Below, one piece after another: positions 7,764-25,062 of a stretch of DNA of 33,775 bases. Source of the DNA: a virus (lineage: Duplodnaviria; Heunggongvirae; Uroviricota; Caudoviricetes). The notes beneath the pieces were generated by a model. That model saw only the letters and a list, made by a program, of their open reading frames with translations, had not been told where the DNA came from and searched no databases. Location: positions 1-33,775 of IMG/VR virus record IMGVR_UViG_2671180456_000007; one strand, written 5' to 3'. The position numbers and the translations under genes are program-made. Every line of letters begins with the position of its first letter. Position 1 is the stretch's first letter.

Positions 7764-7769
7764 AGAGAA

Positions 7770-7872: not shown

Positions 7873-7905
7873 CCCCGGTATCTGCTGATACCGGGGTTTC
7901 TCTTT
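7873..7905. terminator. Bidirectional intrinsic terminator hairpin (10-bp stem CCCCGGTATC/GATACCGGGG, loop TGCT) flanked by T-rich tracts on both strands
   Basis: Perfect 10-bp inverted repeat with a 4-nt loop; TTTCTCTTT follows on the plus strand and TTTTCTTTC on the minus strand. Confidence 0.55.
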
Positions 7906-8275
7906 AGCATGGCAGAAATGTGTTTCATGCTTTTCGGGCGAAGGATATCCGACTTCTGTACGGAATGGCAAGTGGCGGTTAATTTATTCAGGGGAAGGCT
8001 GTATGGGAAAAGGTGGCGGTAAGGCACACACGCCTCGTGAGGCGAAGGATAATCTCAAATCCACGCAGATGATGAGCGTGATTGATGCGATTGGTGAGGG
8101 ACTGATAGAAGGTCCGGTGAAGGGACTGCAGAGTATCCTGGTGAACAAAACCCCGCTGACGGACACGGACGGTAATCCCGTGATACACGGTGTGACGGCG
8201 GTCTGACGCGCCGGGGAGCAGGAGCAGACACCACCGGAAGGCTTTGAGTCCTCCGGTGCTGAAACCGGACTGGGC

Positions 8276-11454: not shown

Positions 11455-11473
11455 ATTTTATAACCCATATACG

Positions 11474-11500
11474 GGCGCCAGAAATGGCGCCTTTTTTATT
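11474..11500 (+). terminator. Rho-independent terminator after J (stem GGCGCCA/TGGCGCC, loop GAAA, T6 tract)
   Basis: GGCGCCAGAAATGGCGCCTTTTTTATT immediately downstream of the J stop codon. Confidence 0.65.
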
Positions 11501-11521
11501 GCAGAAAAGCGAGAGGTAATT

Positions 11522-12121: not shown

Positions 12122-12224
12122 CAACAGACGCCGATTTATCTTCTGTAAATATTGTTATGATACGCAGGTTCATCCACCTTATGGGGTGAACTGCGTTTGA
12201 GGAAACGTAAAGTTACACTGTCCT

Positions 12225-12258
12225 GAAGCCCGTGGCGTCACTGCTGCGGGCTTTTTTT
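12225..12258 (+). terminator. Possible rho-independent terminator between lom and the tail fiber gene (stem AGCCCG/CGGGCT, T7 tract)
   Basis: GAAGCCCG ...14 nt... CGGGCTTTTTTTAT; the loop is large, so confidence is moderate. Confidence 0.4.
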
Positions 12259-12272
12259 ATTGGTGGAAAAGT

Positions 12273-15200
12273 ATGACAGTAAAAATTTCTGGCGTGCTTA
12301 AAGATGGCACAGGAAAACCAGTACAGAACTGCACCATTGTGCTGAAGGCCAGACGAACCAGCAGCACGATGGTGGTGAACACGGTGGCCTCTGAAAATCC
12401 GGATGAAGCCGGACGTTACAGCATGGATGTTGAGCATGGTCAGTACAGCGTCACCCTGCTGGTTGAAGGTTTTCCGCCTTCACATGCCGGGACCATTACC
12501 GTCTATGAAGGTTCCAGACCAGGTACGCTGAATGATTTTCTCGGTGCCATGACGGAGGATGATGTCCGACCGGAGGCACTGCGCCGCTTTGAGCAGATGG
12601 TGGAAGAGGTGTCACGTAACGCCTCCGCGGTTGCACAGAATACGGCAGCCGCGAAAAAATCAGCCAGCGAGGCGGCAACTCATGCAACCGATGCTGCAGC
12701 CTCAGCACGTGCCGCCAGCACGTCAGCCGGACAGGCCGCGTCGTCGGCTCAGTCAGCGTCTTCCAGCGCAGGAACGGCATCGACAAAGGCCCGTGAAGCA
12801 GCAAAAAGTGCTGCTGCAGAGTCATCAAAAAGCGCGGCAGCTACCAGCGCCAGTGCCGCGAAAACGTCAGAAACGAATGCCGCAGCATCACAAAAATCGG
12901 CAGCCACTTCTGCATCCACAGCGACCACGAAGGCGTCAGAAGCTGCCACCTCGGCACGGGGTGCGGCGGCCTCAAAAGAGGCAGCGAAATCTTCAGAAAC
13001 GAATGCATCATCAAGTGCCAGTAGTGCAGCTTCCTCGGCAACGGCGGCAGGAAATTCCGCGAAGGCGGCAAAAACGTCCGAGACGAACGCTAAGTCTTCT
13101 GAAACAGCAGCGGGACAGAGCGCCTCAGCTGCGGCAGGTTCAAAAACAGCGGCTGCATTATCTGCCAGTGCCGCGTCAACAAGTGCCGGGCAGGCCTCAG
13201 CCAGTGCCACCGCCGCCGGAAAATCGGCAGAAAGCGCCGCATCATCCGCTTCAACAGCCACAACGAAGGCTGGCAAAGCCACTGAGCAAGCCACTGCAGC
13301 AGCGAGGTCTGCTTCTGCAGCAAAAACCTCTGAAACAAATGCAAAGACTTCAGCAGACAATGCTGCTTCCTCTAAGGCAGCAGCCGCATCGTCAGCCAGT
13401 TCAGCGGCGTCATCGGCATCATCTGCGTCTGCTTCAAAAGATGAGGCGACCAGACAAGCGTCAGCAGCGAAAGGTAGTGCCACGACAGCAACAACGAAAG
13501 CATCAGAGGCGGCAGGCAGTGCGACGGCTGCATCTCAGAGCAAAGTTGCTGCTGAATCCGCGGCAACGCGCGCCGAGACAGCAGCAAAACGGGCAGAGGA
13601 TATTGCATCCGCCGTGGCGCTGGAGGATGCGAGCACGACGAAAAAGGGGATAGTACAGCTCAGCAGTGCGACCAACAGCACATCTGAAACGCTGGCCGCA
13701 ACGCCAAAAGCAGTTAAAGCAGCCAATGACAATGCGAATAGCCGATTGGCGAAGAATCAGAATGGCGCTGATATCCCCGACAAGGCCCGCTTCCTGAGTA
13801 ACATTAATGCTGCCAGCAAGACTGATATGGCCTCTAAACGAGGAATGAAGTATTCGACAGTGAATGCGCCCGCAGGAGTTGAAGCAGGTAAGTTTTATCC
13901 TGTGGTCATTCGTCGTTCTGCTGGATTCGTCGATGAATTAGCATCTAGGGTAACGATAAGCACAAGTTCAAGAACAGGAAACCACAGACTGAACAACTGC
14001 GAGTTCAACGGATTTGTCATGCCCGGTGGTTGGACTGACAGAGGAAAATATGCTTATGGGATGTTTCACGCATATACTGCAAGTGAACGTGCTATTCATT
14101 CTATCATGATGGGTAACAAAGCGGATGATCTTTGTTCTGTGTTCTATGTTGAAGGTGAAGCGTTTCCTATTGCTGTATATGTAGAAGAAGGCTTATCTGT
14201 TGTTGTACCATCTGCCGATTATGTCGTCGGACAAACAACTTACAAATGGGGCGCCACTAACCCTAAAACAGAATGCGTTGCCGCTGATACTATACTTGAT
14301 TTCTCAAATGGTAGAGGGTTTTATAGTTCGCACTCATTCCTCACAAATGCAGACATTAGCGGTAATAAGGTTTACGCTAATGATGAAGTTATTGTCCGTA
14401 GTCAGAATGCGTTAAGGATGATTGCTGGCGATTACGGTGTCATATGGCGAAATGATGGAGCAAATACTTACTTGCTCATGACTGATAAAGGCGACCAGTA
14501 CGGTGGCTGGAACGGTCTTCGACCATTTGCAGTAAATAACGCAACAGGTGAAGTGACGATCAATACACCACTTAATTCTCCAAAAGGGGTTAAGGGGAAC
14601 TCTGATACAGCTACGAAACTTCAGACTGCAAGAAAAATATCCGGTGTTCCATTTGATGGCTCTACTGATATCACTTTAACCGCCGCGCATGTTGCCGCTT
14701 TCGCAAGAAGAGCAACAGGGTCATATGCTGATGCTGATGGCGGCGTGCCGTGGAATGCTGAATCTGGTGCTTATAATGTAAATAGAACGGGCGACAGTTA
14801 TATTCTTGCCAACTTTTATACTGGTGTAGGTGGTTGCCGTACGCTTCAAATTAAGGCTCACTATAAAAATGGTGGGTTGTTTTATCGTTCATCTCGCGAT
14901 GGCTATGGTTTTGAAAGTGGTTGGGAGCAGGTTTACACGACTGGATTTAGACCTCAGCCGGCTGATATAAACGCACCAACCGCTGCCGACGGATGGTTAA
15001 ATAGTGGTAACGGAACAGCATTTACGACTGCTCAGTTTATAACGTGGCTAAATAATCAGGGTGCATTTTCAAACAAATATTGGATTGCACGGTGCTCATG
15101 GTATTACGCCAACAATAATTATATAGACGACACTGGTTGCGGTAGGATCGATCTATCTGGTTCCGTGATTGAGGTGTTTAGTAATAAGACAACAAGCAAT

Positions 15201-17315
15201 TACACTATTCGTGTTACAACGACAACAACATCGGGTCATGGTGGCGTTAATAATGCGGAATTTATTTATGTGTACAATGGCAGTGATTACTCGCCAGGCT
15301 GGCGTCGTTCTTATAATACTAGAAACAAACCAACAGCTTCTGATGTAGGAGCATTATCGCTTTCTGGAGGAGCGTTAACTGGCGGATTAACTGCTGCTGG
15401 CGAGATTATTTCAAAATCGGCGAATGGTCTGCGCATTGCCTACGGAAACTACGGATTCTTTATCCGAAACGATGGTTCAAGCACATACTTCATGTTGACC
15501 GATTCGGGTAACAGCCTGGGAACCTATAATAGTTTAAGGCCGCTTATCATTAACAATGCCAATGGTGCTGTTACGATCGGTAATGGACTCAATGTTACTG
15601 GCGGCATCAATGGTAGTTTGAACGGTAATGCTTCAACAGCTACGAAGTTGCAAACAGCGAGAAACATCAATGGTGTTAAGTTTGATGGTTCAGGCGATAT
15701 CAATATTAATACATTGGTATCTCGTGGCCGAGTTACGGCGTTAAGCGGCTCTACTCAAGGCACTGCTGGCATTCAAATGTATGAGGCGTACAACAATAGC
15801 TACCCGACCACGTATGGCAACGTATTGCACATGAAAGGTGCGAGTGCTGCTGGTGAGGGCGAGTTGCTTATTGGCTGGAGCGGAACGGATGGTGCTCATG
15901 CACCGGTTTATGTTCGTTCACGCCGTGATACTTCGACAGCGAACTGGTCTGGCTGGGCGCAGATCTACACAACTGCTCATAAACCCACTGCGGCTGATGT
16001 CGGTGCGTTGCCGAGCGGTGGCGGCACACTTTCCGGCGCACTCACATTATCTATGGCTGCGCCAAGTGTCCAGTTACGAGGGCAAGGTACGGACACCAGA
16101 CAGTACATCATGGCTTACAGAACCGATGGCGCTACATCATGGTATGTGGGCAAGGCTAACAACGGCTCCGATAATGCGATGTTCTGGAACTATACCGGCT
16201 CCAACGGAATTGAATTGGCTGCCGATGGCAATGTGCGTATTAATGCGAAGGGTAAACAGTTTACGTTCGCAAACAATGGGAACTTAGGTCTTGTTGCTTC
16301 GTTGGATCAGAGTTCAGTTCCACAGGGTACTTACCATCAAGTAGCTCTTAACACTGGCACTGTTGGTGGTAAATCGTACCTTCGAAAATTCCGCGGCGGC
16401 AACACAGACACCATTTGGCATGAGACGGTTCAGGGCGGCTTACTTCGTTGGGCAACCGGCAATGCTGATGAGCAAGAAGAACTGTCTATCAGTACTGGCT
16501 ATGGTGTTCGAGCAAGAGGTGAAATCACTTCCCTTAGCGCCAATGGTCTAAGAGTGGCTTACGGGAATTACGGCTTCTTTATTCGCAATGATGGCGGAAC
16601 AACTTACTTCATGCTGACTGCTTCTGGCGACAAGTTCGGAAGCTGGAATGCTTTGCGTCCAATGTACATTAACAACGCTTCAGGCGCGGTTACGATGGGG
16701 AACGGGTTGTCGCTTGCCGGTGGCTTAAATGTCACGAGCGGAAATATCCGAATCCCGACGTCGAGTACATCTTGGATCGACATGAGAAACAATGCCGCTC
16801 TGTCTAACAGTTCTGCGGTTGCCACTTCCTCTGCATCGGCCATTATTCGTCAGGAGCACGCCGATCGTCATTATTTTGTTGGTGGTTTAGGCAACTCTCA
16901 GTTCGGGTTCTACATGATTAACAAGTCACGAACCGCGAACGGCACGGATGCGAACGCATACCTCCAGAATGACGGTACTTGGGTTTGCGGCGGTAATGGC
17001 AGCTTTAATGACGTTTATATCCGTTCTGACCGCCGTAGTAAGCGCAATATTCGCAAGATTGACCGGGCGCTCGACAAGCTGGAGCAGATCGAAGGTGTTC
17101 TCTACGAGATTCAGGTCTGTGGCCGTTATGAGCAGTCTGGTGGCCTCATCGCTCAGGATGTCCAGAATGTTCAACCTGAACTGGTAACGGTCGACCATAA
17201 CGATCAGTCAGGAGAGCCTCGTCTGCGTCTTAACTACAACGGCGTTATCGGCATGTTGGTTGAGGCTGTCAAAGAGCTGCGCGAGGAAGTGCGCGAACTG
17301 AAGGCAAAAATGTAA
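12273..17315 (+). CDS. stf: Side tail fiber protein, chimeric: lambda Stf-like N-terminus, Ala/Ser-rich repeat segment, three ~100-aa T-even-like distal fiber repeats, C-terminal intramolecular chaperone (peptidase S74-like) domain
   Basis: 1680-aa ORF; N-terminus MTVKISGVLKDGTGKPVQNCTIVLKAR... is lambda Stf-like; repeated AKTSETNA motifs; three repeats of the form (A)NGLR(I/V)AYGNYGFFIRNDG..TYFMLT..G...NSLRP..INNA.GAVT; C-terminal ...DVYIRSDRRSKRNIRKIDRALDKLEQIEGVLYE matches the SDxxxKxNI autoproteolytic chaperone motif. Confidence 0.85.
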   Translation: MTVKISGVLKDGTGKPVQNCTIVLKARRTSSTMVVNTVASENPDEAGRYSMDVEHGQYSVTLLVEGFPPSHAGTITVYEGSRPGTLNDFLGAMTEDDVRPEALRRFEQMVEEVSRNASAVAQNTAAAKKSASEAATHATDAAASARAASTSAGQAASSAQSASSSAGTASTKAREAAKSAAAESSKSAAATSASAAKTSETNAAASQKSAATSASTATTKASEAATSARGAAASKEAAKSSETNASSSASSAASSATAAGNSAKAAKTSETNAKSSETAAGQSASAAAGSKTAAALSASAASTSAGQASASATAAGKSAESAASSASTATTKAGKATEQATAAARSASAAKTSETNAKTSADNAASSKAAAASSASSAASSASSASASKDEATRQASAAKGSATTATTKASEAAGSATAASQSKVAAESAATRAETAAKRAEDIASAVALEDASTTKKGIVQLSSATNSTSETLAATPKAVKAANDNANSRLAKNQNGADIPDKARFLSNINAASKTDMASKRGMKYSTVNAPAGVEAGKFYPVVIRRSAGFVDELASRVTISTSSRTGNHRLNNCEFNGFVMPGGWTDRGKYAYGMFHAYTASERAIHSIMMGNKADDLCSVFYVEGEAFPIAVYVEEGLSVVVPSADYVVGQTTYKWGATNPKTECVAADTILDFSNGRGFYSSHSFLTNADISGNKVYANDEVIVRSQNALRMIAGDYGVIWRNDGANTYLLMTDKGDQYGGWNGLRPFAVNNATGEVTINTPLNSPKGVKGNSDTATKLQTARKISGVPFDGSTDITLTAAHVAAFARRATGSYADADGGVPWNAESGAYNVNRTGDSYILANFYTGVGGCRTLQIKAHYKNGGLFYRSSRDGYGFESGWEQVYTTGFRPQPADINAPTAADGWLNSGNGTAFTTAQFITWLNNQGAFSNKYWIARCSWYYANNNYIDDTGCGRIDLSGSVIEVFSNKTTSNYTIRVTTTTTSGHGGVNNAEFIYVYNGSDYSPGWRRSYNTRNKPTASDVGALSLSGGALTGGLTAAGEIISKSANGLRIAYGNYGFFIRNDGSSTYFMLTDSGNSLGTYNSLRPLIINNANGAVTIGNGLNVTGGINGSLNGNASTATKLQTARNINGVKFDGSGDININTLVSRGRVTALSGSTQGTAGIQMYEAYNNSYPTTYGNVLHMKGASAAGEGELLIGWSGTDGAHAPVYVRSRRDTSTANWSGWAQIYTTAHKPTAADVGALPSGGGTLSGALTLSMAAPSVQLRGQGTDTRQYIMAYRTDGATSWYVGKANNGSDNAMFWNYTGSNGIELAADGNVRINAKGKQFTFANNGNLGLVASLDQSSVPQGTYHQVALNTGTVGGKSYLRKFRGGNTDTIWHETVQGGLLRWATGNADEQEELSISTGYGVRARGEITSLSANGLRVAYGNYGFFIRNDGGTTYFMLTASGDKFGSWNALRPMYINNASGAVTMGNGLSLAGGLNVTSGNIRIPTSSTSWIDMRNNAALSNSSAVATSSASAIIRQEHADRHYFVGGLGNSQFGFYMINKSRTANGTDANAYLQNDGTWVCGGNGSFNDVYIRSDRRSKRNIRKIDRALDKLEQIEGVLYEIQVCGRYEQSGGLIAQDVQNVQPELVTVDHNDQSGEPRLRLNYNGVIGMLVEAVKELREEVRELKAKM

Positions 17316-17381
17316 TCAAGGTGAATGGTGAGGGGCCACCCTCACCAATTCAGGATATTCACATCAAAAAGGAGATTAGAT

Positions 17382-18164
17382 GTGCCAATTGTCGGTGTTC
17401 CCGGTTGGATTGGGTCTTCGGCTGTCAGTGTGACAGGCCAGAGATGGATGAGTGCGGCTCGAACGGCGGTGCAACTGCCAGCGGCTGGTTCAATGTCTCA
17501 AATGGCCGGGCGATCTAAAGAAGTTCAGTACAGCATCGGTGCGAATCATAACTACAACAAAGACACACTGATCAACTATTTAAAATCCCAGGGGGCGACG
17601 CCAGTCGTTGTTACCATTACAGGGGATCTGGTGTCGTACAGTAGCGGCGTGCCATGTTTAGATTTCCCGAGTTCACTTACCAACTCTTATATCAGCCTTG
17701 TAATCAACGCAGGTGTGACTGTCTATGGACGCGGTGGCAATGGTGGTAGTAACGCTGCCGGTGCTGCTGGTGGTAACGCAATTAATAATGGCATCGGTAC
17801 ACGCTTGCGTATTACGAATAATGGTGCAATCGCTGGAGGTGGTGGCGGCGGTGGCGGCGGTAACAGGGGTCGACTAGTATTTGGTGGTGGCGGTGGGTGC
17901 CCATTCGGTGCTGGTGGGTCTTCCTCTCATATGAGTTCCGGTGCAACTGCTGGTACTATTTCCGCTCCTGGTAAGGGATCTGTTGGTGAGGGGTCTCTTA
18001 GTGCATATACAGGCGGTTCGGGTGGTAATGTCGGTGCTGCTGGAGGAAGATGTAATACTCAAGGTAACGGTACAGAATATAACGGCGGGGCAGCTGGTAA
18101 AGCCGTAACTGGCAACGCGCCTACATGGACTAAAGCTGGGGCAATTTACGGCGCTCATGTGTAA
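17382..18164 (+). CDS. Glycine-rich tail fiber adhesin, gp38-like (T2/T6-type receptor-recognising protein)
   Basis: GTG start 7 nt after the RBS AAGGAG; N-terminus (M)PIVGVPGWIGSSAVSVTGQRWM resembles the T2-type gp38 N-terminus as I recall it; the C-terminal half has poly-Gly motifs (GGGGGGGGGNRG, GGGGG) alternating with variable segments; located directly downstream of the fiber gene. The start codon is uncertain. Confidence 0.5.
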   Translation: MPIVGVPGWIGSSAVSVTGQRWMSAARTAVQLPAAGSMSQMAGRSKEVQYSIGANHNYNKDTLINYLKSQGATPVVVTITGDLVSYSSGVPCLDFPSSLTNSYISLVINAGVTVYGRGGNGGSNAAGAAGGNAINNGIGTRLRITNNGAIAGGGGGGGGGNRGRLVFGGGGGCPFGAGGSSSHMSSGATAGTISAPGKGSVGEGSLSAYTGGSGGNVGAAGGRCNTQGNGTEYNGGAAGKAVTGNAPTWTKAGAIYGAHV

Positions 18165-18238
18165 GTACTTACCTACCAAGTGTGGGCGTTTTATGATATA
18201 AAACCGCCATCCCGATTTGACTTTTCATGGAGGAAAAC

Positions 18239-18562
18239 ATGTCGAACGAGATGGCGGGCGTTACAACAGAGCAAGTTGAGCGTATTGCCGCGATCGTTGC
18301 TCGGGAGGTTGTTGGCAAATTAGGTAAAGAGCTACGTGAAGAAATTGGCCAGGAGGTCAATGATCAGCTGAAAACCTACTTTGGTGATATGACCCCGGCG
18401 CAACATAGTATTCAACACTCCAATCTGGACAAACTCCTTAACCGGTTAGATTCCATCTCAAGTGGGTTCTTTGGCGGCATTGTTTCTAAAATAACGTCGT
18501 TCATTATTACCGCACTGCTTTTGGGGTTAGCCGCGTATGGCGTAAAAAGTGGACTGCAATAA
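18239..18562 (+). CDS. Small tail-anchored membrane protein (acidic N-terminal domain, single C-terminal TM helix); function unknown, possibly holin-like or antiholin-like
   Basis: ATG at 18239 has RBS GGAGG 5 nt upstream; C-terminal hydrophobic helix ITSFIITALLLGLAAYGV. Confidence 0.5.
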   Translation: MSNEMAGVTTEQVERIAAIVAREVVGKLGKELREEIGQEVNDQLKTYFGDMTPAQHSIQHSNLDKLLNRLDSISSGFFGGIVSKITSFIITALLLGLAAYGVKSGLQ

Positions 18563-18575
18563 CAGGAGATCAAGG

Positions 18576-19268
18576 ATGAAAACTCCGAGAGGCATTCGTA
18601 ATAACAACCCTGGCAACCTCGACAAAGGTTCGCCGTGGCAGGGGCTAATCGACAACCCTGCCGAACCGCGCTTTTGCACGTTTAAAGACCCTGTTTGGGG
18701 GATTCGTGCGCTGGCGGTGACTCTAATTACCTACCACGACAAACGTCGCGCAAAAGACGGCTCAAGTATCGATACCATTCGTGAAGTTATTGAACGTTGG
18801 GCACCGCCGAATGAAAACAATACTGACGCCTACATTAATGAGGTGTCTAAAGCCGTTGGTGTAACCGCAGACATGATTATCGATCTGCATGATTACGACA
18901 TTCTTCGACCTTTGGTTGAGGCAATCATTCGCCATGAGAATGGGCGAGGTCCGCTAAAAACGCTGAACACCTGGTATGCGGCAGAAGTTATTGAGGAAGG
19001 TCTGCGTCGAGCTGGCGTTGTTAAGCCGGCGAAAACCGTGAAGGCTGTTCCTGTAACTAAAGAAACCGCAGGCGCAACTGTTACAGCAGGTATTGGTCTG
19101 GCGCAGCTGGCCGATGTTATGCCGCAGGTTTCCGCTGCTATGGATAAAGCACAAGGTCATATCTCTAGCGGGGATACAGTACGCATCATCTTCGGTATTG
19201 CCACTATTGTTGTGGCAGGATTCATTGCCTGGTCGCAGGTAAGAAAACACCAGAAAGGGATGGTCTAA
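18576..19268 (+). CDS. Conserved phage protein with N-terminal GIRNNNPGNL motif and C-terminal TM anchor; candidate cell-wall-acting or lysis-associated protein
   Basis: ATG at 18576 has RBS AGGAG 7 nt upstream; motif RGIRNNNPGNL near the N-terminus; C-terminal TM helix IIFGIATIVVAGFIAW. Function inferred only from context. Confidence 0.5.
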   Translation: MKTPRGIRNNNPGNLDKGSPWQGLIDNPAEPRFCTFKDPVWGIRALAVTLITYHDKRRAKDGSSIDTIREVIERWAPPNENNTDAYINEVSKAVGVTADMIIDLHDYDILRPLVEAIIRHENGRGPLKTLNTWYAAEVIEEGLRRAGVVKPAKTVKAVPVTKETAGATVTAGIGLAQLADVMPQVSAAMDKAQGHISSGDTVRIIFGIATIVVAGFIAWSQVRKHQKGMV

Positions 19269-19269
19269 T

Positions 19270-19521
19270 ATGCTAGGCAGCCTGATGACAAAGCTAAAAG
19301 TTGCTTTGATTACGCTGGCTGCCGTTCTTTTCGTTCTTGTCGGCGCTTACACGATGGGCGGGAATGCGGCGCGACGAGCAATGGAAGAGAAGGCAAAACA
19401 GGAAGACAGAAAACGACTTCAAAACACAGTGAAAGTGGTGAATGAGACGAGCAGTAAAATACGTCAGAAAGATGCTTCTGCCGTTCATCGTGAGTTGTAT
19501 GATAAGTGGGTGCGTCATTAA
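19270..19521 (+). CDS. i-spanin-like (Rz-like) small inner-membrane protein
   Basis: 83 aa; N-terminal TM helix (LKVALITLAAVLFVLVGAY) followed by a charged, probably helical domain; another gene overlaps its 3' end in a different frame. Confidence 0.45.
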   Translation: MLGSLMTKLKVALITLAAVLFVLVGAYTMGGNAARRAMEEKAKQEDRKRLQNTVKVVNETSSKIRQKDASAVHRELYDKWVRH

Positions 19522-19657
19522 GCCACAAACCACTAGCGTGTTGTTCTGCGATGGCGCTGAACCTATTTATATCAGCAATGACGATGTAATGACCGAAGAA
19601 ACCGAACGCCAAATCCTTTTTCACAATACGATGGGAGAGAGAGTTTGCGGTTGGTGA
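19442..19657 (+). CDS. Outer-membrane lipoprotein overlapping the previous gene out of frame (o-spanin Rz1-like; alternatively a Cor/Llp-like superinfection-exclusion lipoprotein)
   Basis: Lipobox-like MISGC after a hydrophobic signal segment (MLLPFIVSCMISGC); starts inside the Rz-like gene in another frame and extends beyond its stop (overlapped spanin architecture). Confidence 0.45.
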   Translation: MRRAVKYVRKMLLPFIVSCMISGCVIKPQTTSVLFCDGAEPIYISNDDVMTEETERQILFHNTMGERVCGW

Positions 19658-19666
19658 TGTCGAAGT

Positions 19667-19684
19667 TCCCCTCAAATGAGGGGG
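19667..19684. terminator. Hairpin between convergent genes (stem TCCCCTC/GAGGGGA, loop AAAT); probable bidirectional terminator
   Basis: 7-bp GC-rich inverted repeat between the lipoprotein gene (+) and the GNAT toxin gene (-). Confidence 0.4.
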
Positions 19685-19689
19685 ACACA

Positions 19690-20211
19690 TTATTCTTCGA
19701 ACAATTTTTCGATAGATTTTGTAGAATAGAACAAAGAACGCTCGTTGTTACCAACCAGCTGGATAAAGCCCAAACTTTTATAAAACGCCCTGGCTTTATC
19801 GTTCAACGCCTCAACGAAAAGCCCATGAATGCCTACCGCAAGAGATGCATTGTACACAACACGCATTGCGTGAGTTACAAGCATTGAGCCAAGCCCCTGA
19901 CCTTGAAGAGATTTGTCCAAAGCCAGTCTGCCTAAAGTGATACTTGGGACATTCCGATAAGGCACTTTCTTTTGCTGACTCTTTGAAGGTAAGGTTTCTT
20001 TCTCAAAGCAGCTGCCTGACAAAGTGTAATAACCTAATACCTTTGGTATTTCTTCTTTAGTGCAAAGCACATAAGCGCGAAGAATTTTTCCTTCATGCTG
20101 TCTTTTTAAGTGGTTGGTCAAAAATGCGTTTAGTGACTCTTCGCCGCAATCAAAACCGTTTAGATCATAATCGTTCTCTCCAGAGAAAATCTCGATCGTC
20201 GTATTGCTCAC
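19690..20211 (-). CDS. GNAT-family acetyltransferase toxin (TacT/AtaT/KacT-like, tRNA-acetylating type)
   Basis: 173-aa ORF; acetyl-CoA-binding motif region GRLALDKSLQGQGLG; immediately downstream of, and co-directional with, a DUF1778-like antitoxin gene. Confidence 0.8.
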   Translation of the reverse strand: MSNTTIEIFSGENDYDLNGFDCGEESLNAFLTNHLKRQHEGKILRAYVLCTKEEIPKVLGYYTLSGSCFEKETLPSKSQQKKVPYRNVPSITLGRLALDKSLQGQGLGSMLVTHAMRVVYNASLAVGIHGLFVEALNDKARAFYKSLGFIQLVGNNERSLFYSTKSIEKLFEE

Positions 20212-20218
20212 GAGTAAA

Positions 20219-20488
20219 TTACTCCATGCTTTTCAGACGATTGGCAGCTCGTTTCAGCTTGTCGTTCGGTGCTGGAGGATTGCTTATAGCATCCATAACC
20301 AGATTCCAGGACTCTTCACTTAGAACCAGTCTACGGTGTTGCTCTATCACCTTCACGGCACGTTCGGATGCACTGCTAACCATGAACTGGGTAATGCTCT
20401 GGTTAGACATTGCGGCAGCTTCCTCGATGATGCTTTTATCGTCATCGGTTAATCTCAAATCGATGCGCTGCTTTTTCAGTGCGGACAT
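20219..20488 (-). CDS. DUF1778-family antitoxin (TacA/AtaR/KacA-like, ribbon-helix-helix)
   Basis: 89-aa ORF MSALKKQRIDLRLTDDDKSIIEEAAAMSNQSITQFMVSSASERA...; RHH-like N-terminus; 7-nt gap to the toxin gene. Confidence 0.8.
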   Translation of the reverse strand: MSALKKQRIDLRLTDDDKSIIEEAAAMSNQSITQFMVSSASERAVKVIEQHRRLVLSEESWNLVMDAISNPPAPNDKLKRAANRLKSME

Positions 20489-20543
20489 GTGTACCCCCTG
20501 ATGGCCGGTGATGTAGGAAGGCCATCATTGCTCTCTATTTAAA

Positions 20544-20637
20544 CTGAGTTTTCGACTCAAAGGTTATTTAACTGGGCTATAGCCCATTGCGTATGTGTCA
20601 TCAAATTGTGTACGGCAATTTACCGTACTCGTAATAT
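20544..20637. promoter_or_regulatory. Cluster of short palindromes in the parA/toxin-antitoxin divergent region (GGGCTATAGCCC at 20573-20584; GTACGG-N7-CCGTAC at 20619-20637; TGAGT-N5-ACTCA at 20544-20558): candidate operators or centromere-like sites
   Basis: Perfect inverted repeats read directly in the 320-bp AT-rich spacer between the divergent antitoxin and parA genes. Confidence 0.35.
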
Positions 20638-20807
20638 AGAGATGATTGTCACTTTTTTCAACAGACAAATGAAAACAGTTACTAGCAATAGGCAATAACA
20701 ACCTACTAAATAACCTTTACACCGCAGCCGTAGGCATTTAGGCTATATCACATATAAGAAAACAAGTTGTTTCAGACGATAATTATATACGCAAAGGGAA
20801 CTCTCCA

Positions 20808-21476
20808 ATGACCAAGATCTTTGTGGTTGGCGGCACAAAGGGCGGGCCTGGCAAATCCACTGTTGCCCAGCAAATTGCCGTTTGCCTGAAAGTCAAAAAG
20901 AAGAAGAAGGTTTATATCACTGATATAGATATTCAGCGCACGACAACAAGCTGGTGTGAAGACCGTAGACAGAACGAAGACCTTGAGCTGATTCCTTTTG
21001 CATACGTTCAGGATGACATCATTAAGCACCTAAAATCGCTTCAGGGTAGAGCTGAGTTTGTAGTGGTAGATGCTGGTGGCTTTGACTCCGAAATTCAGCG
21101 ACAAGCGATGCTGATGGCCGACGTTATCATTATCCCGCTTCGTCCTAAGCGTCGTGATTTGAAATCTCTGCGTGACATCGATCCTATTATCGACAATGTT
21201 CGTAATGTAAACGATAAAGTGAAGGTCCGCGCGGTCATGAACCAGTGCCCGGCTTTGCCATCACAAGTGTCTCGCATTCTGGCGGCTAAAGAGATTGTTG
21301 AGACGTTTGGCATCGAGTCTGCGCCAGTCAATCTATATAACCGCAACGTCTACGATGATGCGGAAGAGTCTGGTCGTTCTATCTTTGAAATGACCGGTAG
21401 CGAGCGCGACAAAAAGGCGGAAGCCGAGTTTGAAGAATTTGTAGATTATCTGTTGAGTCTGGAGGAAGAAGAATAA
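20808..21476 (+). CDS. parA: ParA/Soj-family partition ATPase (small, type Ib-like)
   Basis: 222 aa; deviant Walker A motif GGTKGGPGKST near the N-terminus; followed by a small RHH-like protein gene overlapping by 1 nt. Confidence 0.85.
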   Translation: MTKIFVVGGTKGGPGKSTVAQQIAVCLKVKKKKKVYITDIDIQRTTTSWCEDRRQNEDLELIPFAYVQDDIIKHLKSLQGRAEFVVVDAGGFDSEIQRQAMLMADVIIIPLRPKRRDLKSLRDIDPIIDNVRNVNDKVKVRAVMNQCPALPSQVSRILAAKEIVETFGIESAPVNLYNRNVYDDAEESGRSIFEMTGSERDKKAEAEFEEFVDYLLSLEEEE

Positions 21477-21835
21477 TGTCCATGAAAATGGGTGACCTAG
21501 CAAAGCGCAAAGAGCCTGATGCACCGGCCAAGAACACAACTCCTTTGCGCCAACCAGTCAGACCACAGGGACGCCCGACTCGTGGCAAAGAGAAAATTAA
21601 AAGCCGCACAATGTCACTGGAGGACGAATACTTCGAACTGCTGGAGATGATGAAGTTCATCCCTCGCTTCGAGAAGTTCACTCGTTCTGACGTGATTCGT
21701 GCTGCTATTTTCCATCTGGCAGAGAAGTCACCGCAGGAAATCGAGGACATCGTGAAATTGAATGAGGCGATCACCGCTGCCGATGTCACGATGCGTACCG
21801 ATGAAATCAAACGAGAGTTGATGAAGAAAGGTTAA
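21476..21835 (+). CDS. Small ParG-like centromere-binding protein (basic disordered N-terminal tail plus ribbon-helix-helix-like C-terminus)
   Basis: 119 aa; Lys/Arg/Pro-rich N-terminal 45 aa then ...KSRTMSLEDEYFELLEMM...RSDVIRAAIFHLA; TAATG coupling to parA. Confidence 0.55.
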   Translation: MSMKMGDLAKRKEPDAPAKNTTPLRQPVRPQGRPTRGKEKIKSRTMSLEDEYFELLEMMKFIPRFEKFTRSDVIRAAIFHLAEKSPQEIEDIVKLNEAITAADVTMRTDEIKRELMKKG

Positions 21836-21838
21836 AAA

Positions 21839-21873
21839 TTATGCATTGGCGCAATGTACGCGCCAATGCATAA
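21839..21873. terminator. Bidirectional terminator hairpin between convergent genes (14-bp stem TTATGCATTGGCGC/GCGCCAATGCATAA, loop AATGTAC)
   Basis: Perfect 14-bp inverted repeat located between the parG-like stop (21835) and the GIY-YIG gene stop (21888). Confidence 0.6.
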
Positions 21874-21887
21874 CTACAGTGTCAGCT

Positions 21888-22655
21888 TTATGCCGCGCTA
21901 ACACTATGTTCAGTCCTAACCACCCCAACCTTCACAAAAGGGCTACCGTAGCTTGGTGGCTTCTTGATTAATTTGCCTACATACAGTTTTCTAATATGCT
22001 CATCGGCTATTCTGCCAACAAATTCATAACGTTTTGTGTCGGGGCCAAGAGCTATATCCCTTGTAAAGTACTGCTGAGAACCGGCTTTGACCCAGCATTC
22101 AATCTGATAAACTTCCATTATTAGCCCACCATATGTAGAGTAGGCATATTTGAGATTCTCGTCTCTTGGAACCTTTGCCCATACGCCACGCGTAGCTTCA
22201 TATAATGCCAGAGCGGACATTCCTGACTTGTAGGTGCTGTTTAGCAGGAAGGCAAGACCGGCGTGCTCAGGAGCAATTTCAGTTTCCTCTTGCAGCACTA
22301 AGTGATGGTAGGCGTCCAGTGATATTCTGCCCATCATGGAACCACTTCCTCGTACCTTATTCGTAAGCTCTCCGACCCCCATAAGGTCGATGCATGTCGC
22401 CTCAACAAGTTTGGCTGTGGTTTCATCCATACCATGACGAAGTATATCTATGCCTAATTTTTTATTAGCCAAAAGTTCTTTGATCCGCATGGATTTGGGA
22501 GAGTCATCGGGATACTTGATGTGATCGAGACAACGAGTCGATTTGCCTTTTCCTATGTAAAACGGTCTTTTCATCTTGTCTTCTGTATCATAGAGACAGT
22601 AAACATAGTATTTAGCCTTATCCAATGATCTCGCGTATACCGATAAATCGTCCAT
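21888..22655 (-). CDS. GIY-YIG-family nuclease with a ~150-aa C-terminal domain of unknown function (stand-alone, opposite strand)
   Basis: 255 aa; N-terminal motifs KYYVYCLYD ... PFYIGKGKSTRCLDH match the GIY ... YIG ... R ... H pattern of GIY-YIG nucleases; the C-terminal domain (…WAKVPRDENLKYAYSTYGGLIMEVYQIECWVKAG…) was not recognised. Confidence 0.7.
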   Translation of the reverse strand: MDDLSVYARSLDKAKYYVYCLYDTEDKMKRPFYIGKGKSTRCLDHIKYPDDSPKSMRIKELLANKKLGIDILRHGMDETTAKLVEATCIDLMGVGELTNKVRGSGSMMGRISLDAYHHLVLQEETEIAPEHAGLAFLLNSTYKSGMSALALYEATRGVWAKVPRDENLKYAYSTYGGLIMEVYQIECWVKAGSQQYFTRDIALGPDTKRYEFVGRIADEHIRKLYVGKLIKKPPSYGSPFVKVGVVRTEHSVSAA

Positions 22656-22766
22656 TATTGCATCTCTTTGCTACTGACTAATGCGTTCTATTTTACACAT
22701 AAGTTTTTAATCAATTTAACAGGCTCAAAGTGTAGAGCTTCTGGGCGTCTAAGACGACAAGTTATG

Positions 22767-22821
22767 CCTGCTTCTGTATATATAAATAATAAGTAACTTA
22801 TTAAATATATACGGAAGCAGG
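22767..22821. repeat. Nested near-perfect palindrome (17-bp arms CCTGCTTCTGTATATAT / ATATATACGGAAGCAGG around a palindromic 21-nt AT-rich core); candidate operator, origin or cruciform
   Basis: Arms at 22767-22783 and 22805-22821 with one mismatch; the core AATAAGTAACTTATT is itself palindromic; lies in a divergent intergenic region. Confidence 0.5.
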
Positions 22822-22937
22822 TCTTTTAAAAGACACCACCAGAACAACTCCCTTCCGTTTCCACTTCCAAAAACTGCCACCAGTCGCTATCATCCGCTCA
22901 TCGTGATAAGTAAGTAACTACCTACCAGGTGAGCCAC

Positions 22938-23678
22938 ATGAGCCAGATCTTTTTCGATACCATCGACAACGACCAGTACGACTTCATGACAGAGTGGAAT
23001 ACCGCTGTTATGGACAAGTGGGTCGCTGAAAACATTGGTTTGTCGCGCTGTAAAGACGAGGCTGAACTCTTCGAGACGAAGTGGTTTGATTACCGCGACA
23101 TGCATCCTCTCATGGCCACCTGTCTTTTTACGGAGGCATACAAACGTCAGTACTCAAATATCATGCTGACGCACGGTCGCGAACACTTTGAAACAGCTCC
23201 GTTCACCACCGGGTTAAAACGTCTGCCTTATCAGGAGTTGTCGACTGCCAACAAAACGTCGCTATGGAAAGCACGCCAGTTTGCGGATCGCTATTGCTGC
23301 TCATACGACTACTTTATCTCCACCGTTCTTTCCGCAGCTGCACGACGACTGTGGGACAAGCTGCCGCGTCCGCAGCATTTGTGGCAGCCAGAACTGATTG
23401 AGATATTCGAAGAGAAATTAGCCAGACGCGCAACAACCCGTCTGGATGACTCTCTGGTTAGCTTTAAGCATATGGGAGACATGCAGTTCAACCCGATTCA
23501 GGAAAGCTATTTTGAGTGGATTCTGGAGCGTTTGCGCACCATCCCCCGCAGCAAGCGCATACGCGCAATTTTCTCCGCTATCTGGCTAATGGAAATCGTT
23601 CCAGAGCGCCTTATTTCCGCCCACTTTCCAGAAGAACTGGAAGAAGCACGGCGGTTTATTGATCCCCTATCTAATTAA
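22938..23678 (+). CDS. Hypothetical protein, first gene of the replication module (possible helicase loader or accessory factor)
   Basis: ATG at 22938 with RBS AGGTGA upstream (the ORF-finder start at 22929 is a GTG); 247 aa, no recognisable motif; immediately upstream of the helicase gene. Confidence 0.6.
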   Translation: MSQIFFDTIDNDQYDFMTEWNTAVMDKWVAENIGLSRCKDEAELFETKWFDYRDMHPLMATCLFTEAYKRQYSNIMLTHGREHFETAPFTTGLKRLPYQELSTANKTSLWKARQFADRYCCSYDYFISTVLSAAARRLWDKLPRPQHLWQPELIEIFEEKLARRATTRLDDSLVSFKHMGDMQFNPIQESYFEWILERLRTIPRSKRIRAIFSAIWLMEIVPERLISAHFPEELEEARRFIDPLSN

Positions 23679-23721
23679 CTAATACTAGAAAACAATTTGT
23701 TTAAAAAACAAAGGAAAGCAC

Positions 23722-25062
23722 ATGACCGAACTTTGCCATACAGGACGCGGGCTGTCCGAAGAGTTTGATGAAGATTTTCAGAACAGATTGACGGCCTATT
23801 TTTGTCGTGATCACGAGTTTCTTACTCGTGCGGGAGATCTGGTTGTACCTAGCCAATTTGCCAATGCGGCCAATGCCATATTGGTTAATATGGTTTCGGG
23901 CTATTACCGTATGTACAAGAGCGCGCCCTCTTCATCTGCGATTCTGGATATGCTTAAGCGTGCGAAACGCGATAAGACTATCCGTGAGGAACTATTCGCC
24001 GATGTTGTTGCTGCGTTTAAGCGCATCCTTGCAGAAAAATTGTCTGATACCTCGTACATGGTTGACCAGGTATCAACCTTCGCAAAAAGCGTAGCGTTTG
24101 ATGATGCTCTGATTAAGGCTGCTGAACTGAAAGAGAAGGGCGACTTTCAGGGGGCGATGGCAATCATGGCCAAGGTTCAGCAGATTGGATCGAACGAAGC
24201 GACCGGAATCTATGACTACTACACCTCCGCAAGTGAGCGATTGAAAGCGCGTGAATATGAGGCTTCAGAGGAGTATGTGCCAAACAGCATTACAACTGGA
24301 CTCCCTCTGCTCGATAGGTTGCTGTACCAAAAAGGCTGGGCGAAGCGTGAAATGGTGCTCTTCATGGGGTTCGCTAAATCCGGTAAATCGACCGCAATGG
24401 GTGAGTTTTCCATAAACGCAACGCTTGCTGGCTACAATGTTCTGTATCTCTCGCTGGAGGTTCACACCACCATTTTATCCGACCGTTTTGATGCAAGATT
24501 GTCGGAGACAGAAATGTCCAAGCTGGTGGAACGGCGCGATGAGGTTCATCGTAAGTTGGCAGAGTTGGGAGCCACGAAGGGGATTGGTAGTTTGTGGGTT
24601 GTTGAGCGTCCGTCAGGAAGTATGTCACCGGCAGATCTGGATCGTATGCTTAACAGCATGAAAGCCAATGGCATGGTGCCTGACATGGTTGTTGTCGACT
24701 ATGCAGATTTGATGCGTGCCAGTTATGACCTTCGTGATGATCGCGCCAACATACGTAGTATCTATACCGACTTACGTGCTCTTTATGACAAACACAACGT
24801 TGCTGGTATCACGGCATCGCAGACAAACCGTGAAGGTGGCGCGTCAGAAGTTGCCACAATGATGCACGCTGCCGACAACATCGAAAAAGTACGTATTGCT
24901 GACCTGGTAATAACGATCAACAAAACAGAAGAAGAAGAAGCGAAAGGAGAGGCTCGTCTCTACTTTGCTGGTTCACGTAACCAGCAGGGAGGGATCAGCA
25001 TTCGCGTTAAACAAAACCTCGAACAAATGCGCTTCATTGAGCGAATCTTAGACGTTACCTAA
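23722..25062 (+). CDS. DnaB-like replicative DNA helicase
   Basis: 446 aa; Walker A GFAKSGKST, Walker B-like VVVDYADLM, and a RecA-fold C-terminal domain with ...GITASQTNREG...; RBS AAGGAAAG. Confidence 0.85.
   Translation: MTELCHTGRGLSEEFDEDFQNRLTAYFCRDHEFLTRAGDLVVPSQFANAANAILVNMVSGYYRMYKSAPSSSAILDMLKRAKRDKTIREELFADVVAAFKRILAEKLSDTSYMVDQVSTFAKSVAFDDALIKAAELKEKGDFQGAMAIMAKVQQIGSNEATGIYDYYTSASERLKAREYEASEEYVPNSITTGLPLLDRLLYQKGWAKREMVLFMGFAKSGKSTAMGEFSINATLAGYNVLYLSLEVHTTILSDRFDARLSETEMSKLVERRDEVHRKLAELGATKGIGSLWVVERPSGSMSPADLDRMLNSMKANGMVPDMVVVDYADLMRASYDLRDDRANIRSIYTDLRALYDKHNVAGITASQTNREGGASEVATMMHAADNIEKVRIADLVITINKTEEEEAKGEARLYFAGSRNQQGGISIRVKQNLEQMRFIERILDVT

What the first reader, a model, noticed from the sequence alone, without database searches (positions are those of the whole stretch)
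18239..19657. Non-canonical membrane-protein cluster downstream of the adhesin: tail-anchored protein, NNPGN-motif protein with C-terminal TM anchor, overlapping spanin-like pair
Four genes encode membrane-targeted products: a 107-aa protein with an acidic cytoplasmic domain and a single C-terminal TM; a 230-aa protein with the conserved GIRNNNPGNL motif and a C-terminal TM; an 83-aa N-terminally anchored protein; and a lipoprotein (lipobox ISGC) that overlaps it out of frame. The overlap resembles Rz/Rz1 spanins, but the first two proteins do not look like a classical holin and endolysin, and the cluster sits beside the tail fiber genes rather than in a typical late lysis cassette. Alternative roles are superinfection exclusion (Cor/Llp-like lipoprotein) or envelope remodelling.
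Basis: partly seen in the sequence, partly recalled or inferred. Interest (0 to 1): 0.5.

Follow-up and report, generated by a model that had tools for sequence, protein, structure and literature searches.

The report
Lysis cassette of an SSU5-like phage-plasmid
These four genes are the cell-bursting (lysis) module of a well-known group of E. coli phage-plasmids, built around an already characterised, unusual membrane-anchored cell-wall enzyme, so the finding is largely ordinary, apart from an unstudied first gene whose label "holin" may be wrong.

Summary
The four genes are in the sequence as described: 18239-18562 (107 aa, C-terminal TM), 18576-19268 (230 aa, GIRNNNPGN motif, C-terminal TM), 19270-19521 (83 aa, N-terminal TM) and 19442-19657 (71 aa, lipobox ISGC, overlapping out of frame).

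Together they form the lysis cassette of an SSU5-like phage-plasmid. Phage Cyrano (97% identical) and SSU5 annotate the same genes as holin/endolysin/Rz/Rz1.

- **230-aa protein:** an Enc34 ORF39/M4Lys-type endolysin. It matches PDB 7Q47 at E 6.6e-54 and is 56% identical end to end to M4Lys. The catalytic Trp, Tyr and Glu are conserved. This class has been shown by experiment to be muralytic and to lyse cells through its C-terminal TM domain.
- **Last two genes:** an overlapped i-/o-spanin pair. The o-spanin belongs to the Chi family already catalogued for SSU5.
- **Position after the tail-fibre genes:** normal for SSU5-like and Chi-like phages.
- **Exclusion role:** no support for Cor/Llp-like exclusion.

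The open point is the 107-aa protein (phrog_5093, function unknown). It is unrelated to the Chi-like "holin". In 12 distant loci it always opens a lysis cassette, next to five different endolysin types. In two of those loci a recognised holin sits beside it, so it may be a lysis regulator rather than the holin.

The parts
18165..18238 (+). 74-nt intergenic gap between the gp38-type adhesin gene and the first lysis gene. It holds a weak hairpin plus T-run at 18172-18186 and the GGAGG ribosome-binding site of p107.
   Evidence: In 12 distant relatives a gap of about 40-280 nt (mostly about 70-150) likewise separates the family member from the tail genes, whereas the gene downstream abuts or overlaps it. 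No sigma-70-like promoter was found.
18239..18562 (+). p107: a tail-anchored inner-membrane protein, member of phrog_5093 (function unknown). It is annotated 'holin' by position in Cyrano and SSU5. Here I read it as the first gene of the lysis cassette, either a hole-former or a lysis-timing regulator.
   Evidence: phrog_5093 at E 2e-68, with no Pfam, NCBIfam or PADLOC hit. TM at residues 81-103. AlphaFold2 with a 64-sequence alignment gives pLDDT 85.9 and two long helices, 10-48 and 53-104. G49, H56 and H60 are invariant across 64 family members.
18576..19268 (+). p230: an Enc34 ORF39/M4Lys-type endolysin. Its parts are an N-terminal PHA02564-type catalytic domain (residues about 1-150; W75, Y86, E121), a linker, an amphipathic helix (about 166-190), a C-terminal TM helix (204-222) and a basic tail.
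   Evidence: PDB 7q47_A at E 6.6e-54 over residues 3-152, with W/Y/E aligned to Enc34 Trp79/Tyr95/Glu131. It is 56% identical to M4Lys over residues 2-228, TM domain included (E 5e-92). It also hits phrog_873 'endolysin' at E 9e-88.
19270..19521 (+). p83: the i-spanin (Rz-like), with an N-terminal TM at about 11-29 and a charged helical periplasmic domain of about 54 residues.
   Evidence: phrog_1026 'Rz-like spanin' at E 7e-25. TM. It is collinear with, though only weakly similar to, the BSPM4 i-spanin (23% identity, E 5e-4). Annotated Rz in Cyrano and SSU5.
19442..19657 (+). p71: the o-spanin (Rz1-like) outer-membrane lipoprotein. The lipobox ISGC lies at 19502-19513 (Cys24, Val at +2). The mature protein is 48 aa and contains two further Cys. 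The gene overlaps the i-spanin gene by 80 nt in the +1 frame ('overlapped' architecture).
   Evidence: phrog_1275 'Rz-like spanin' at E 3e-25. It is 41% identical to the BSPM4 o-spanin, E 5e-19. The SSU5 o-spanin is listed in the Chi o-spanin family by Kongari et al. 2018 (PMC6139136).
19665..19686 (.). GC-rich hairpin (9-bp stem, 6 GC pairs) between the convergent o-spanin gene and the KacT-like toxin gene. It is a possible terminator for the lysis operon (tentative).
   Evidence: The number of terminator-like sites in the region is not above the shuffled expectation (3 found against 2.1 expected), so this part is weak.

Best explanation
The cluster is the host-lysis cassette of an SSU5-like phage-plasmid. 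It is transcribed after the tail and tail-fibre genes and consists of four parts.

1. p107, a small tail-anchored inner-membrane protein.
2. p230, an Enc34/M4Lys-type endolysin. Its N-terminal all-helical lysozyme-alpha-lobe-like domain cleaves peptidoglycan (in homologues, a GH73-like beta-N-acetylglucosaminidase). Its own C-terminal TM domain tethers it to the inner membrane.
3. p83, an i-spanin.
4. p71, an o-spanin encoded in an overlapping frame.

Most likely mechanism:
- p230 accumulates at the inner membrane. Its catalytic domain reaches the murein by a route that depends on its TM domain and not on Sec. This is shown for M4Lys, which is 56% identical, and inferred here.
- p107 controls when this happens. 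I put about 45% on a timing regulator or accessory factor acting from the cytoplasmic face, and about 35% on a true hole-former.
- Once the murein is degraded, the Rz/Rz1-like pair disrupts the outer membrane. This is inferred from family membership.
For: **Synteny and annotation**
- The block is 97% identical to phage Cyrano, where the genes are annotated Holin/Endolysin/Rz/Rz1, and 82% identical to SSU5, annotated putative holin/endolysin/Rz-like spanins.

**Endolysin**
- It matches the solved Enc34 catalytic domain 7Q47 at E 6.6e-54, with the Trp/Tyr/Glu catalytic triad conserved.
- It aligns end to end with M4Lys, including the TM helix and the basic tail.
- Published experiments show that the Enc34 and M4Lys catalytic domains are muralytic. 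Full-length M4Lys lyses E. coli without a holin and despite azide. Deleting the TM domain abolishes lysis (PMC8943055; PMC7143992).

**Spanins**
- The proteins show homology to the BSPM4 pair.
- A lipobox with a non-Asp residue at +2 and an N-terminal TM are present.
- SSU5 is listed in the spanin census.

**p107 belongs to the lysis module**
- It lies 13 nt upstream of the endolysin gene.
- In 12 distant loci its relatives are always the first gene of a cassette that holds an endolysin: Enc34-type, SLT with an N-terminal TM, GH19, two kinds of M15, or GH24. They abut or overlap the next gene.

**No competing cassette**
- No other lysis genes are annotated in the complete SSU5 genome.
Against: - Nothing in this cassette has itself been tested. 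The functional evidence comes from homologues at 56% identity (endolysin) and 23-41% identity (spanins).
- p107 matches no known holin family and lacks the charged C-terminal tail typical of holins.
- How an N-terminal catalytic domain without a signal peptide crosses the membrane is unknown even for M4Lys and Enc34.
- The i-spanin is short (83 aa) and only weakly similar to its Chi-like counterpart.
- RefSeq/PGAP annotates these genes only as hypothetical proteins and does not call the o-spanin.
Confidence: 0.9

Rival explanations
1. This is a standard holin-endolysin-spanin cassette in which p107 is the true holin. It would be an unusual single-TM, tail-anchored class: it oligomerises in the inner membrane, triggers at a set time, and releases or activates the membrane-tethered endolysin.
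For: - p107 sits immediately upstream of the endolysin gene and is annotated 'Holin' in Cyrano and SSU5.
- It is small, has one TM helix with a polar face (S83, K84, S87, T91 invariant among close relatives), and opens the lysis cassette in every locus examined.
- No other small membrane protein is present in the SSU5-type cassette.
Against: - It hits no holin family in Pfam, PHROGs or NCBIfam and has no charged C-terminal tail.
- In L089 and L099 a recognised holin (PF13272; also phrog_1528 in L089) lies directly after the family member. In six other cassette types a separate small protein with hydrophobic, TM-like segments is present.
- The homologous endolysin M4Lys lyses cells without any holin, through its own TM domain.
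Confidence: 0.35
2. The cluster, or at least the lipoprotein and p107, serves superinfection exclusion or envelope remodelling during plasmid-state lysogeny (Cor/Llp-like) rather than lysis.
For: - It lies next to receptor-binding genes.
- It encodes a small lipoprotein and small membrane proteins.
- SSU5 does carry a Cor-type gene in the same neighbourhood.
Against: - The lipoprotein matches spanin families only (phrog_1275, E 3e-25) and is 41% identical to a Chi-like o-spanin.
- It overlaps an i-spanin gene in the classic architecture.
- None of the four proteins hits PADLOC.
- The Cor gene of SSU5 (SSU5_025) is a different gene, upstream of the cassette, and is absent from this window.
- The neighbouring p230 has an intact muralytic active site.
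Confidence: 0.04
3. The cassette is an inactive relic carried by a plasmid that no longer completes a lytic cycle.
For: - The window looks chimeric: lambdoid tail genes joined to an SSU5-like backbone.
- A J-like gene appears split into three ORFs.
- Many SSU5-like elements are known only as plasmids.
Against: - All four ORFs are intact, with good ribosome-binding sites and conserved catalytic residues.
- The cassette is 99.6% identical to those of several 105-112-kb plasmids and 97% identical to that of phage Cyrano.
- By contrast, degenerate versions do exist elsewhere (L093 and L095 have lost the catalytic Glu), which shows that decay can be detected when it is present.
Confidence: 0.06

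Closest known systems
Enc34 ORF39 (PDB 7Q47) and M4Lys of Salmonella phage BSPM4: Enc34-type endolysins with a PHA02564 catalytic domain and a C-terminal TM domain
   Same: - p230 has the same domain order and length.
- It is 56% identical to M4Lys over the whole protein, including the TM helix and basic tail. It matches 7Q47 at E 6.6e-54.
- The catalytic Trp/Tyr/Glu are conserved.
- It holds the same position, between a small membrane protein and an overlapped spanin pair, after the tail genes.
   Different: - The host element is a roughly 110-kb phage-plasmid, not a 60-kb Chi-like virulent siphovirus.
- The linker is shorter (a six-residue deletion after RHENG).
- The main texts of the two experimental papers do not mention SSU5-like elements.
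Lysis cassette of Salmonella phage SSU5 (SSU5_026-030) and Escherichia phage Cyrano (CYRAN_22-25)
   Same: It is orthologous gene for gene. The block shows 82% (SSU5) and 97% (Cyrano) nucleotide identity, with the same order and spacing.
   Different: - The upstream neighbour differs. Here it is a T-even gp38-type adhesin. SSU5 has a short adhesin, an OMP-like gene and Cor. Cyrano has a P1 S-like fibre.
- Cyrano's Rz1 is annotated from an internal start that omits the lipobox.
Chi-family o-spanins and overlapped two-component spanins (Kongari et al. 2018, PMC6139136)
   Same: - A lipobox and three Cys residues are present, with a conserved C-terminal ER(V/L)CGW motif.
- The architecture is overlapped.
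- The SSU5 o-spanin is already placed in the Chi family.
   Different: - The i-spanin is a singleton family in that census. It is only 23% identical to the Chi-like one.
- Both spanins are short (83 aa, and 48 aa mature).
BSPM4 ORF_37 / Enc34 ORF38 (the 'lysis protein B'/'holin' of Chi-like phages)
   Same: Like p107, it is a single-pass membrane protein of about 110 aa encoded directly upstream of an Enc34-type endolysin. ORF_37 was not needed for M4Lys lysis in vitro and slightly delayed it.
   Different: - There is no sequence relationship (BLASTP E 17; hhalign probability 0.7%).
- The layout is opposite. ORF_37 has an N-terminal TM and a C-terminal coiled-coil tail, whereas p107 has an N-terminal helical domain and a C-terminal TM.
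Antiholins and accessory lysis regulators (for example T4 RI/RIII, P1 LydB, P2 LysA); the comparison is from general knowledge
   Same: These are small proteins encoded in or beside lysis cassettes that tune the timing of lysis rather than forming the lesion. That would fit a family member that sits alongside a recognised holin (L089, L099).
   Different: - There is no sequence or fold similarity to any of them.
- p107 relatives accompany at least four unrelated putative holin types, which argues against a partner-specific antiholin.

Membership tests
Enc34/M4Lys-type endolysin | N-terminal PHA02564-type catalytic domain homologous to Enc34 ORF39 | tested here: met
   phmmer against the PDB: 7q47_A at E 6.6e-54, query residues 3-152. 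phrog_873 'endolysin' at E 9e-88.
Enc34/M4Lys-type endolysin | Catalytic Glu131 together with Trp79 and Tyr95 (Enc34 numbering) | tested here: met
   E121 (RHENG), W75 (ERWAPP) and Y86 (DAYINE) align to these residues.
Enc34/M4Lys-type endolysin | C-terminal TM domain (amphipathic helix plus hydrophobic helix) followed by a basic tail, with no N-terminal signal or SAR sequence | tested here: met
   The only hydropathy peak is at 204-222, followed by the tail RKHQKGMV. It aligns with the M4Lys TM domain.
Enc34/M4Lys-type endolysin | Muralytic activity, and lysis that depends on the TM domain and not on Sec or a holin | not testable with these tools
   Shown only for the homologues (PMC8943055, PMC7143992).
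Two-component spanin (overlapped Rz/Rz1 type) | i-spanin: N-terminal TM plus a helical periplasmic domain | tested here: met
   TM at 11-29. phrog_1026 at E 7e-25.
Two-component spanin (overlapped Rz/Rz1 type) | o-spanin: lipoprotein signal with lipobox Cys and an outer-membrane sorting residue (not Asp) at +2 | tested here: met
   ISGC with Cys24 and Val25. phrog_1275 at E 3e-25. 41% identical to the BSPM4 o-spanin.
Two-component spanin (overlapped Rz/Rz1 type) | The o-spanin gene starts inside the i-spanin gene in another frame and runs past its end; the pair is the last in the lysis cassette | tested here: met
   19442-19657 against 19270-19521: an 80-nt overlap in the +1 frame.
Two-component spanin (overlapped Rz/Rz1 type) | Physical i-/o-spanin complex and outer-membrane disruption | not testable with these tools
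Holin (for p107) | Small membrane protein with at least one TM, encoded next to the endolysin gene | tested here: met
   107 aa, one TM, 13 nt upstream of p230. The same position is found in 12 distant loci.
Holin (for p107) | Hydrophilic, highly charged C-terminal tail | tested here: not met
   The protein ends ...AAYGVKSGLQ, only 4-5 residues after the TM and with a single charge.
Holin (for p107) | Homology to a described holin family | tested here: not met
   No Pfam or NCBIfam hit. The only PHROG is phrog_5093, 'unknown function', and all 29 diverse members tested hit only that family. No fold match.
Holin (for p107) | It is the membrane-lesion-forming component of its cassette | tested here: inconclusive
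   Relatives sit beside a recognised holin in L089 and L099 (PF13272 in both; phrog_1528 in L089) and beside other small hydrophobic (TM-like) proteins in six further cassette types. In SSU5-type cassettes the only other candidate is the endolysin's own TM domain.
Cor/Llp-type superinfection-exclusion lipoprotein (for p71) | Sequence homology to Cor/Llp families, as a stand-alone gene near the tail-fibre genes | tested here: not met
   The only PHROG hit is a spanin family. No PADLOC hit. The Cor gene of SSU5 is a different gene (SSU5_025).

The most novel reading that the evidence does not exclude
The 107-aa protein annotated 'holin' in SSU5-like phage-plasmids is not the holin. It belongs to an undescribed family (phrog_5093) of tail-anchored inner-membrane proteins:
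- two long helices;
- an invariant G-x6-H-x3-H motif just on the cytoplasmic side of the TM;
- at least 56 clusters at 50% identity.

The family heads the lysis cassette across a broad clade of roughly 100-110-kb phages, whatever endolysin (five types) or holin accompanies it. It would therefore act as a generic lysis-timing or lysis-licensing factor. In the SSU5 and Chi type of cassette, the real membrane-breaching element would be the endolysin's own C-terminal TM domain, in effect a fused holin-endolysin.
Probability: 0.4. Interest if true: 0.5.

Novelty: already known. Interest (0 to 1): 0.25.

Why it matters
As a cassette it matters little. It is the annotated lysis module of a common family of enterobacterial phage-plasmids, present in about 4.6% of complete E. 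coli genomes.

Two points keep some value.

1. These clinically widespread plasmids, several of which carry resistance genes, encode the Enc34/M4Lys class of endolysin. How that enzyme reaches the cell wall without a signal peptide or a holin is still unexplained. The cassette offers an E. coli-native system in which to study the question. RefSeq currently labels all of these genes 'hypothetical'.
2. The first gene belongs to a conserved, uncharacterised family that travels with many kinds of endolysin and holin. Working out its role could reveal a new type of lysis regulator and would correct a widespread 'holin' annotation.

Tried and rejected
- **Pfam, NCBIfam and PADLOC scans of the four proteins.** Nothing significant for p107, p83 or p71, and nothing for the catalytic domain of p230. 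Only PHROGs and the PDB sequence search were informative.
- **First AlphaFold2 run of p107, using 14 close homologues.** Uninformative (pLDDT 47). A 64-sequence alignment raised this to 85.9. Foldseek searches of BFVD and the PDB then gave no match better than E 2.6, which is expected for a two-helix protein.
- **The search for related loci with the diverse alignments A2 and A4.** With A3 it returned only loci at least 91% identical to the query.
- **tblastn of a distant member (P0041) against cultured phages.** It found only the 12 SSU5-like records. Distant contexts therefore had to come from metagenome contigs through the look-up of encoding contigs.
- **Possible remote homology between p107 and the Chi-like 'lysis protein B' (ORF_37).** Rejected (BLASTP E 17, hhalign probability 0.7%).
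- **GTG start at 18549 for the endolysin and ATG at 18227 for p107.** Rejected in favour of 18576 and 18239, on ribosome-binding sites and the N-termini of homologues.
- **Search for a second lysis cassette.** None is annotated in SSU5. I did not rescan the SSU5 proteins myself.
Full report
**Observation**

- p107, 18239-18562: GGAGG lies 5 nt upstream of the ATG. The only hydrophobic segment is at residues 81-103.
- p230, 18576-19268: it has an AGGAG ribosome-binding site and starts MKTPRGIRNNNPGNL. The only strong hydrophobic segment is at 204-222, followed by RKHQKGMV.
- p83, 19270-19521: TM at about 11-29.
- p71, 19442-19657: lipobox ISGC with Cys24 and Val at +2. It overlaps p83 by 80 nt in another frame.

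The genes are real. PHROG E-values run from 3e-25 to 9e-88. The block is conserved on 403 PLSDB plasmids and in 250 of 5426 complete E. coli genomes, always on plasmids of about 105-114 kb and never on chromosomes.

**What the element is**

The region 17300-19800 is 95.6% identical to Escherichia phage CMS-2020a. From the first lysis gene onward it is 97% identical to phage Cyrano and 82% identical to Salmonella phage SSU5.
- Cyrano annotates the four genes as Holin, Endolysin, Rz spanin and Rz1 spanin. They are followed, as in the window, by a KacT-type toxin/antitoxin pair and ParA.
- The SSU5 RefSeq record annotates them as putative holin, endolysin and Rz-like spanins.
- The rest of the SSU5 genome carries no other annotated holin or endolysin.

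**The NNPGN protein**

Pfam and NCBIfam have no model for its N-terminal domain, which explains why it looked unclassifiable.

A sequence search of the PDB gives 7q47_A, 'Endolysin', at E 6.6e-54 over residues 3-152. 7Q47 is the catalytic domain of Hafnia phage Enc34 ORF39 (PMC8943055).

What that paper reports:
- The domain (family PHA02564) is muralytic on outer-membrane-permeabilised E. coli, P. aeruginosa and H. alvei.
- It has an all-helical fold resembling the alpha-lobe of lysozyme.
- It shares a catalytic Glu131 and the aromatic residues Trp79 and Tyr95 with GH73 and GH23 enzymes.

In p230 these residues are E121, W75 and Y86, and all three are conserved.

p230 also aligns end to end with M4Lys of Chi-like phage BSPM4: 56% identity, E 5e-92, including the amphipathic helix, the TM helix and the basic tail.

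What was shown for M4Lys (PMC7143992):
- The full-length protein alone lyses E. coli.
- Azide does not block the lysis.
- Deleting the TM domain abolishes it, and the TM domain alone is only bacteriostatic.
- The catalytic domain acts as an N-acetylglucosaminidase.

The same domain also occurs inside ejection and internal-virion proteins of many podoviruses and siphoviruses. The PDB entry 9vvp, Gp29, is another example.

**The spanins**

- p83 hits phrog_1026 and p71 hits phrog_1275, both labelled Rz-like spanins.
- p71 is 41% identical (E 5e-19) to the o-spanin I read from the BSPM4 cassette. The two share the lipobox, three Cys residues and the C-terminal ER(V/L)CGW motif.
- p83 is collinear with the BSPM4 i-spanin but only 23% identical.
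- The spanin census of Kongari et al. already lists the SSU5 o-spanin in the Chi family (with Enc34) and its i-spanin as a singleton (PMC6139136).
- Nothing points to a Cor/Llp function. PADLOC gives no hits, and the Cor gene of SSU5 is a separate gene upstream of the cassette that is missing from the window.

**Position in the genome**

[quoted passage not shown] The same holds in BSPM4, SSU5 and Cyrano. A place beside the tail-fibre genes is thus the norm for this lineage.

**The first gene**

This is the only part that is not already explained.
- p107 matches only phrog_5093, a family of unknown function.
- It is unrelated to the protein in the equivalent position in Chi-like phages, ORF_37, which has the opposite layout: an N-terminal TM and a C-terminal coiled coil.
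- Among cultured phages, only the 12 SSU5-like records contain it.

An exhaustive profile search found 56 cluster representatives at E <= 1e-3. Most (about 45 of the 56) are 94-150 aa and collinear; the rest are shorter fragments.

An alignment of 64 members shows only three invariant positions: G49, H56 and H60. They form a G-x6-H-x3-H motif ahead of the C-terminal TM. With that alignment AlphaFold2 predicts two long helices, 10-48 and 53-104, at pLDDT 85.9. The second helix runs straight into the membrane. No fold match was found.

I then read the genomic context of 12 distant members.

- In all 12 loci the member follows the tail-fibre or other upstream genes after a gap of about 40-280 nt (mostly about 70-150). 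It abuts or overlaps the next gene (at most 9 nt apart).
- In all but one locus (L092) the next genes include a recognisable or evident endolysin. Its type varies:

| Loci | Endolysin type next to the family member |
|---|---|
| L093, L095 | Enc34-type with C-terminal TM domain |
| L089, L099 | SLT with an N-terminal TM |
| L090 | soluble GH19 |
| L087, L096 | M15-like |
| L094, L097 | Peptidase_M15_3 |
| L098 | GH24 |

- Wherever the endolysin lacks its own C-terminal TM domain, a further small protein with hydrophobic, TM-like segments is present. In L089 and L099 it is a recognised holin (PF13272 in both; phrog_1528 in L089). The others are holin-like by architecture only.

What this shows and what I infer from it:
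- Shown: p107 belongs to the lysis module. It is the module's most stable component across a clade of roughly 100-110-kb phages.
- Inferred: it may not be the lesion-former. It lacks the charged C-terminal tail of holins and sits alongside recognised holins. In the SSU5/Chi type of cassette, the endolysin's own TM domain is sufficient for lysis in the homologue.
- I put about 45% on a lysis-timing or accessory role, 35% on a genuine but unusual holin, and the rest on something else.
- The contexts are not fully independent. Several share a downstream PhoH gene and a 390-450-aa gene, which indicates a common phage lineage.

**Verdict**

The cluster is the already annotated lysis cassette of SSU5-like phage-plasmids. 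It contains an experimentally characterised endolysin class and catalogued spanins. Novelty: already known. Interest is low to moderate.

Two open questions remain:
- the unresolved export mechanism of Enc34-type endolysins;
- the uncharacterised phrog_5093 family, for which I give a testable alternative to the 'holin' label.

Noticed in passing
window 48-13718 versus 12854-25000: The window looks chimeric. Positions 48 to about 13.7 kb match lambdoid prophage tail genes at 92-97% identity (GC 0.53-0.61). From 12.85 kb onward it matches SSU5-like phage-plasmids (98% to NZ_CP074122.1). The two matches overlap in the Ala/Ser-rich N-terminal part of the 1680-aa fibre gene. No PLSDB plasmid and no complete E. 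coli genome holds the junction in one piece. It is either a natural recombinant within the fibre gene or an assembly chimera at a shared repeat.
   Followed up: partly
window 7681-11454: The lambda J-like tail-tip gene appears as three consecutive ORFs (7681-8022, 8276-9919, 9913-11454) instead of one. This could mean frameshifts, a pseudogene or sequencing errors.
   Followed up: no
window 17325-18164: A T-even gp38-type adhesin gene (Pfam GP38, E 3.9e-70; 82-90% nucleotide identity to the gp38 genes of RB49, JSE and similar T4-like phages) sits directly after a 1680-aa fibre gene in a siphovirus-type phage-plasmid. The fibre's C-terminus looks like an S74-type intramolecular chaperone domain; that reading comes from the sequence only and was not scanned. 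SSU5 and Cyrano carry different genes at this position, so the receptor-binding module appears to be exchanged across phage families.
   Followed up: partly
window 19690-20488 (- strand): A GNAT-toxin (KacT/TacT-like, 173 aa) and RHH-antitoxin (89 aa) pair lies convergent with the lysis cassette. A GC-rich hairpin at 19665-19686 is the only sequence between the o-spanin stop codon and the toxin stop codon. The genes are named after the Cyrano annotation.
   Followed up: no
L093 3368-4063 and L095 3375-4070: In two AT-rich (GC 0.32-0.34) distant SSU5-like contigs the Enc34-type protein has lost the catalytic Glu (RHENG has become VMYNG or IMNNG) as well as the Trp/Tyr positions. It keeps the linker, the TM domain and the basic tail almost unchanged. 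The membrane-acting part seems to be under stronger constraint than the enzyme. No other endolysin was seen in the 3 kb downstream.
   Followed up: partly
window 18384-18419 (p107 residues 49-60) and alignment A6: Across 64 diverse phrog_5093 members the only invariant residues are G49, H56 and H60 (FGDMxxxQHxIQH), one helical turn apart and about 20 residues before the TM. This may be a metal- or partner-binding site. It is unexplained.
   Followed up: partly
RefSeq E. coli plasmids, e.g. NZ_CP074122.1 34475-35893: PGAP annotates the cassette as 'hypothetical protein (x3)' (occasionally 'membrane protein') under the match and does not call the o-spanin. Cyrano's Rz1 is annotated from an internal start that omits the lipobox. 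This is a systematic annotation gap for about 250 complete E. coli genomes.
   Followed up: yes
L092 3387-4243: In one distant cassette the family member is followed by a 72-aa protein with two TM helices, a 150-aa lipoprotein (lipobox LIGC) and a 61-aa soluble protein. There is no recognisable endolysin. The lysis enzyme there is unidentified.
   Followed up: no
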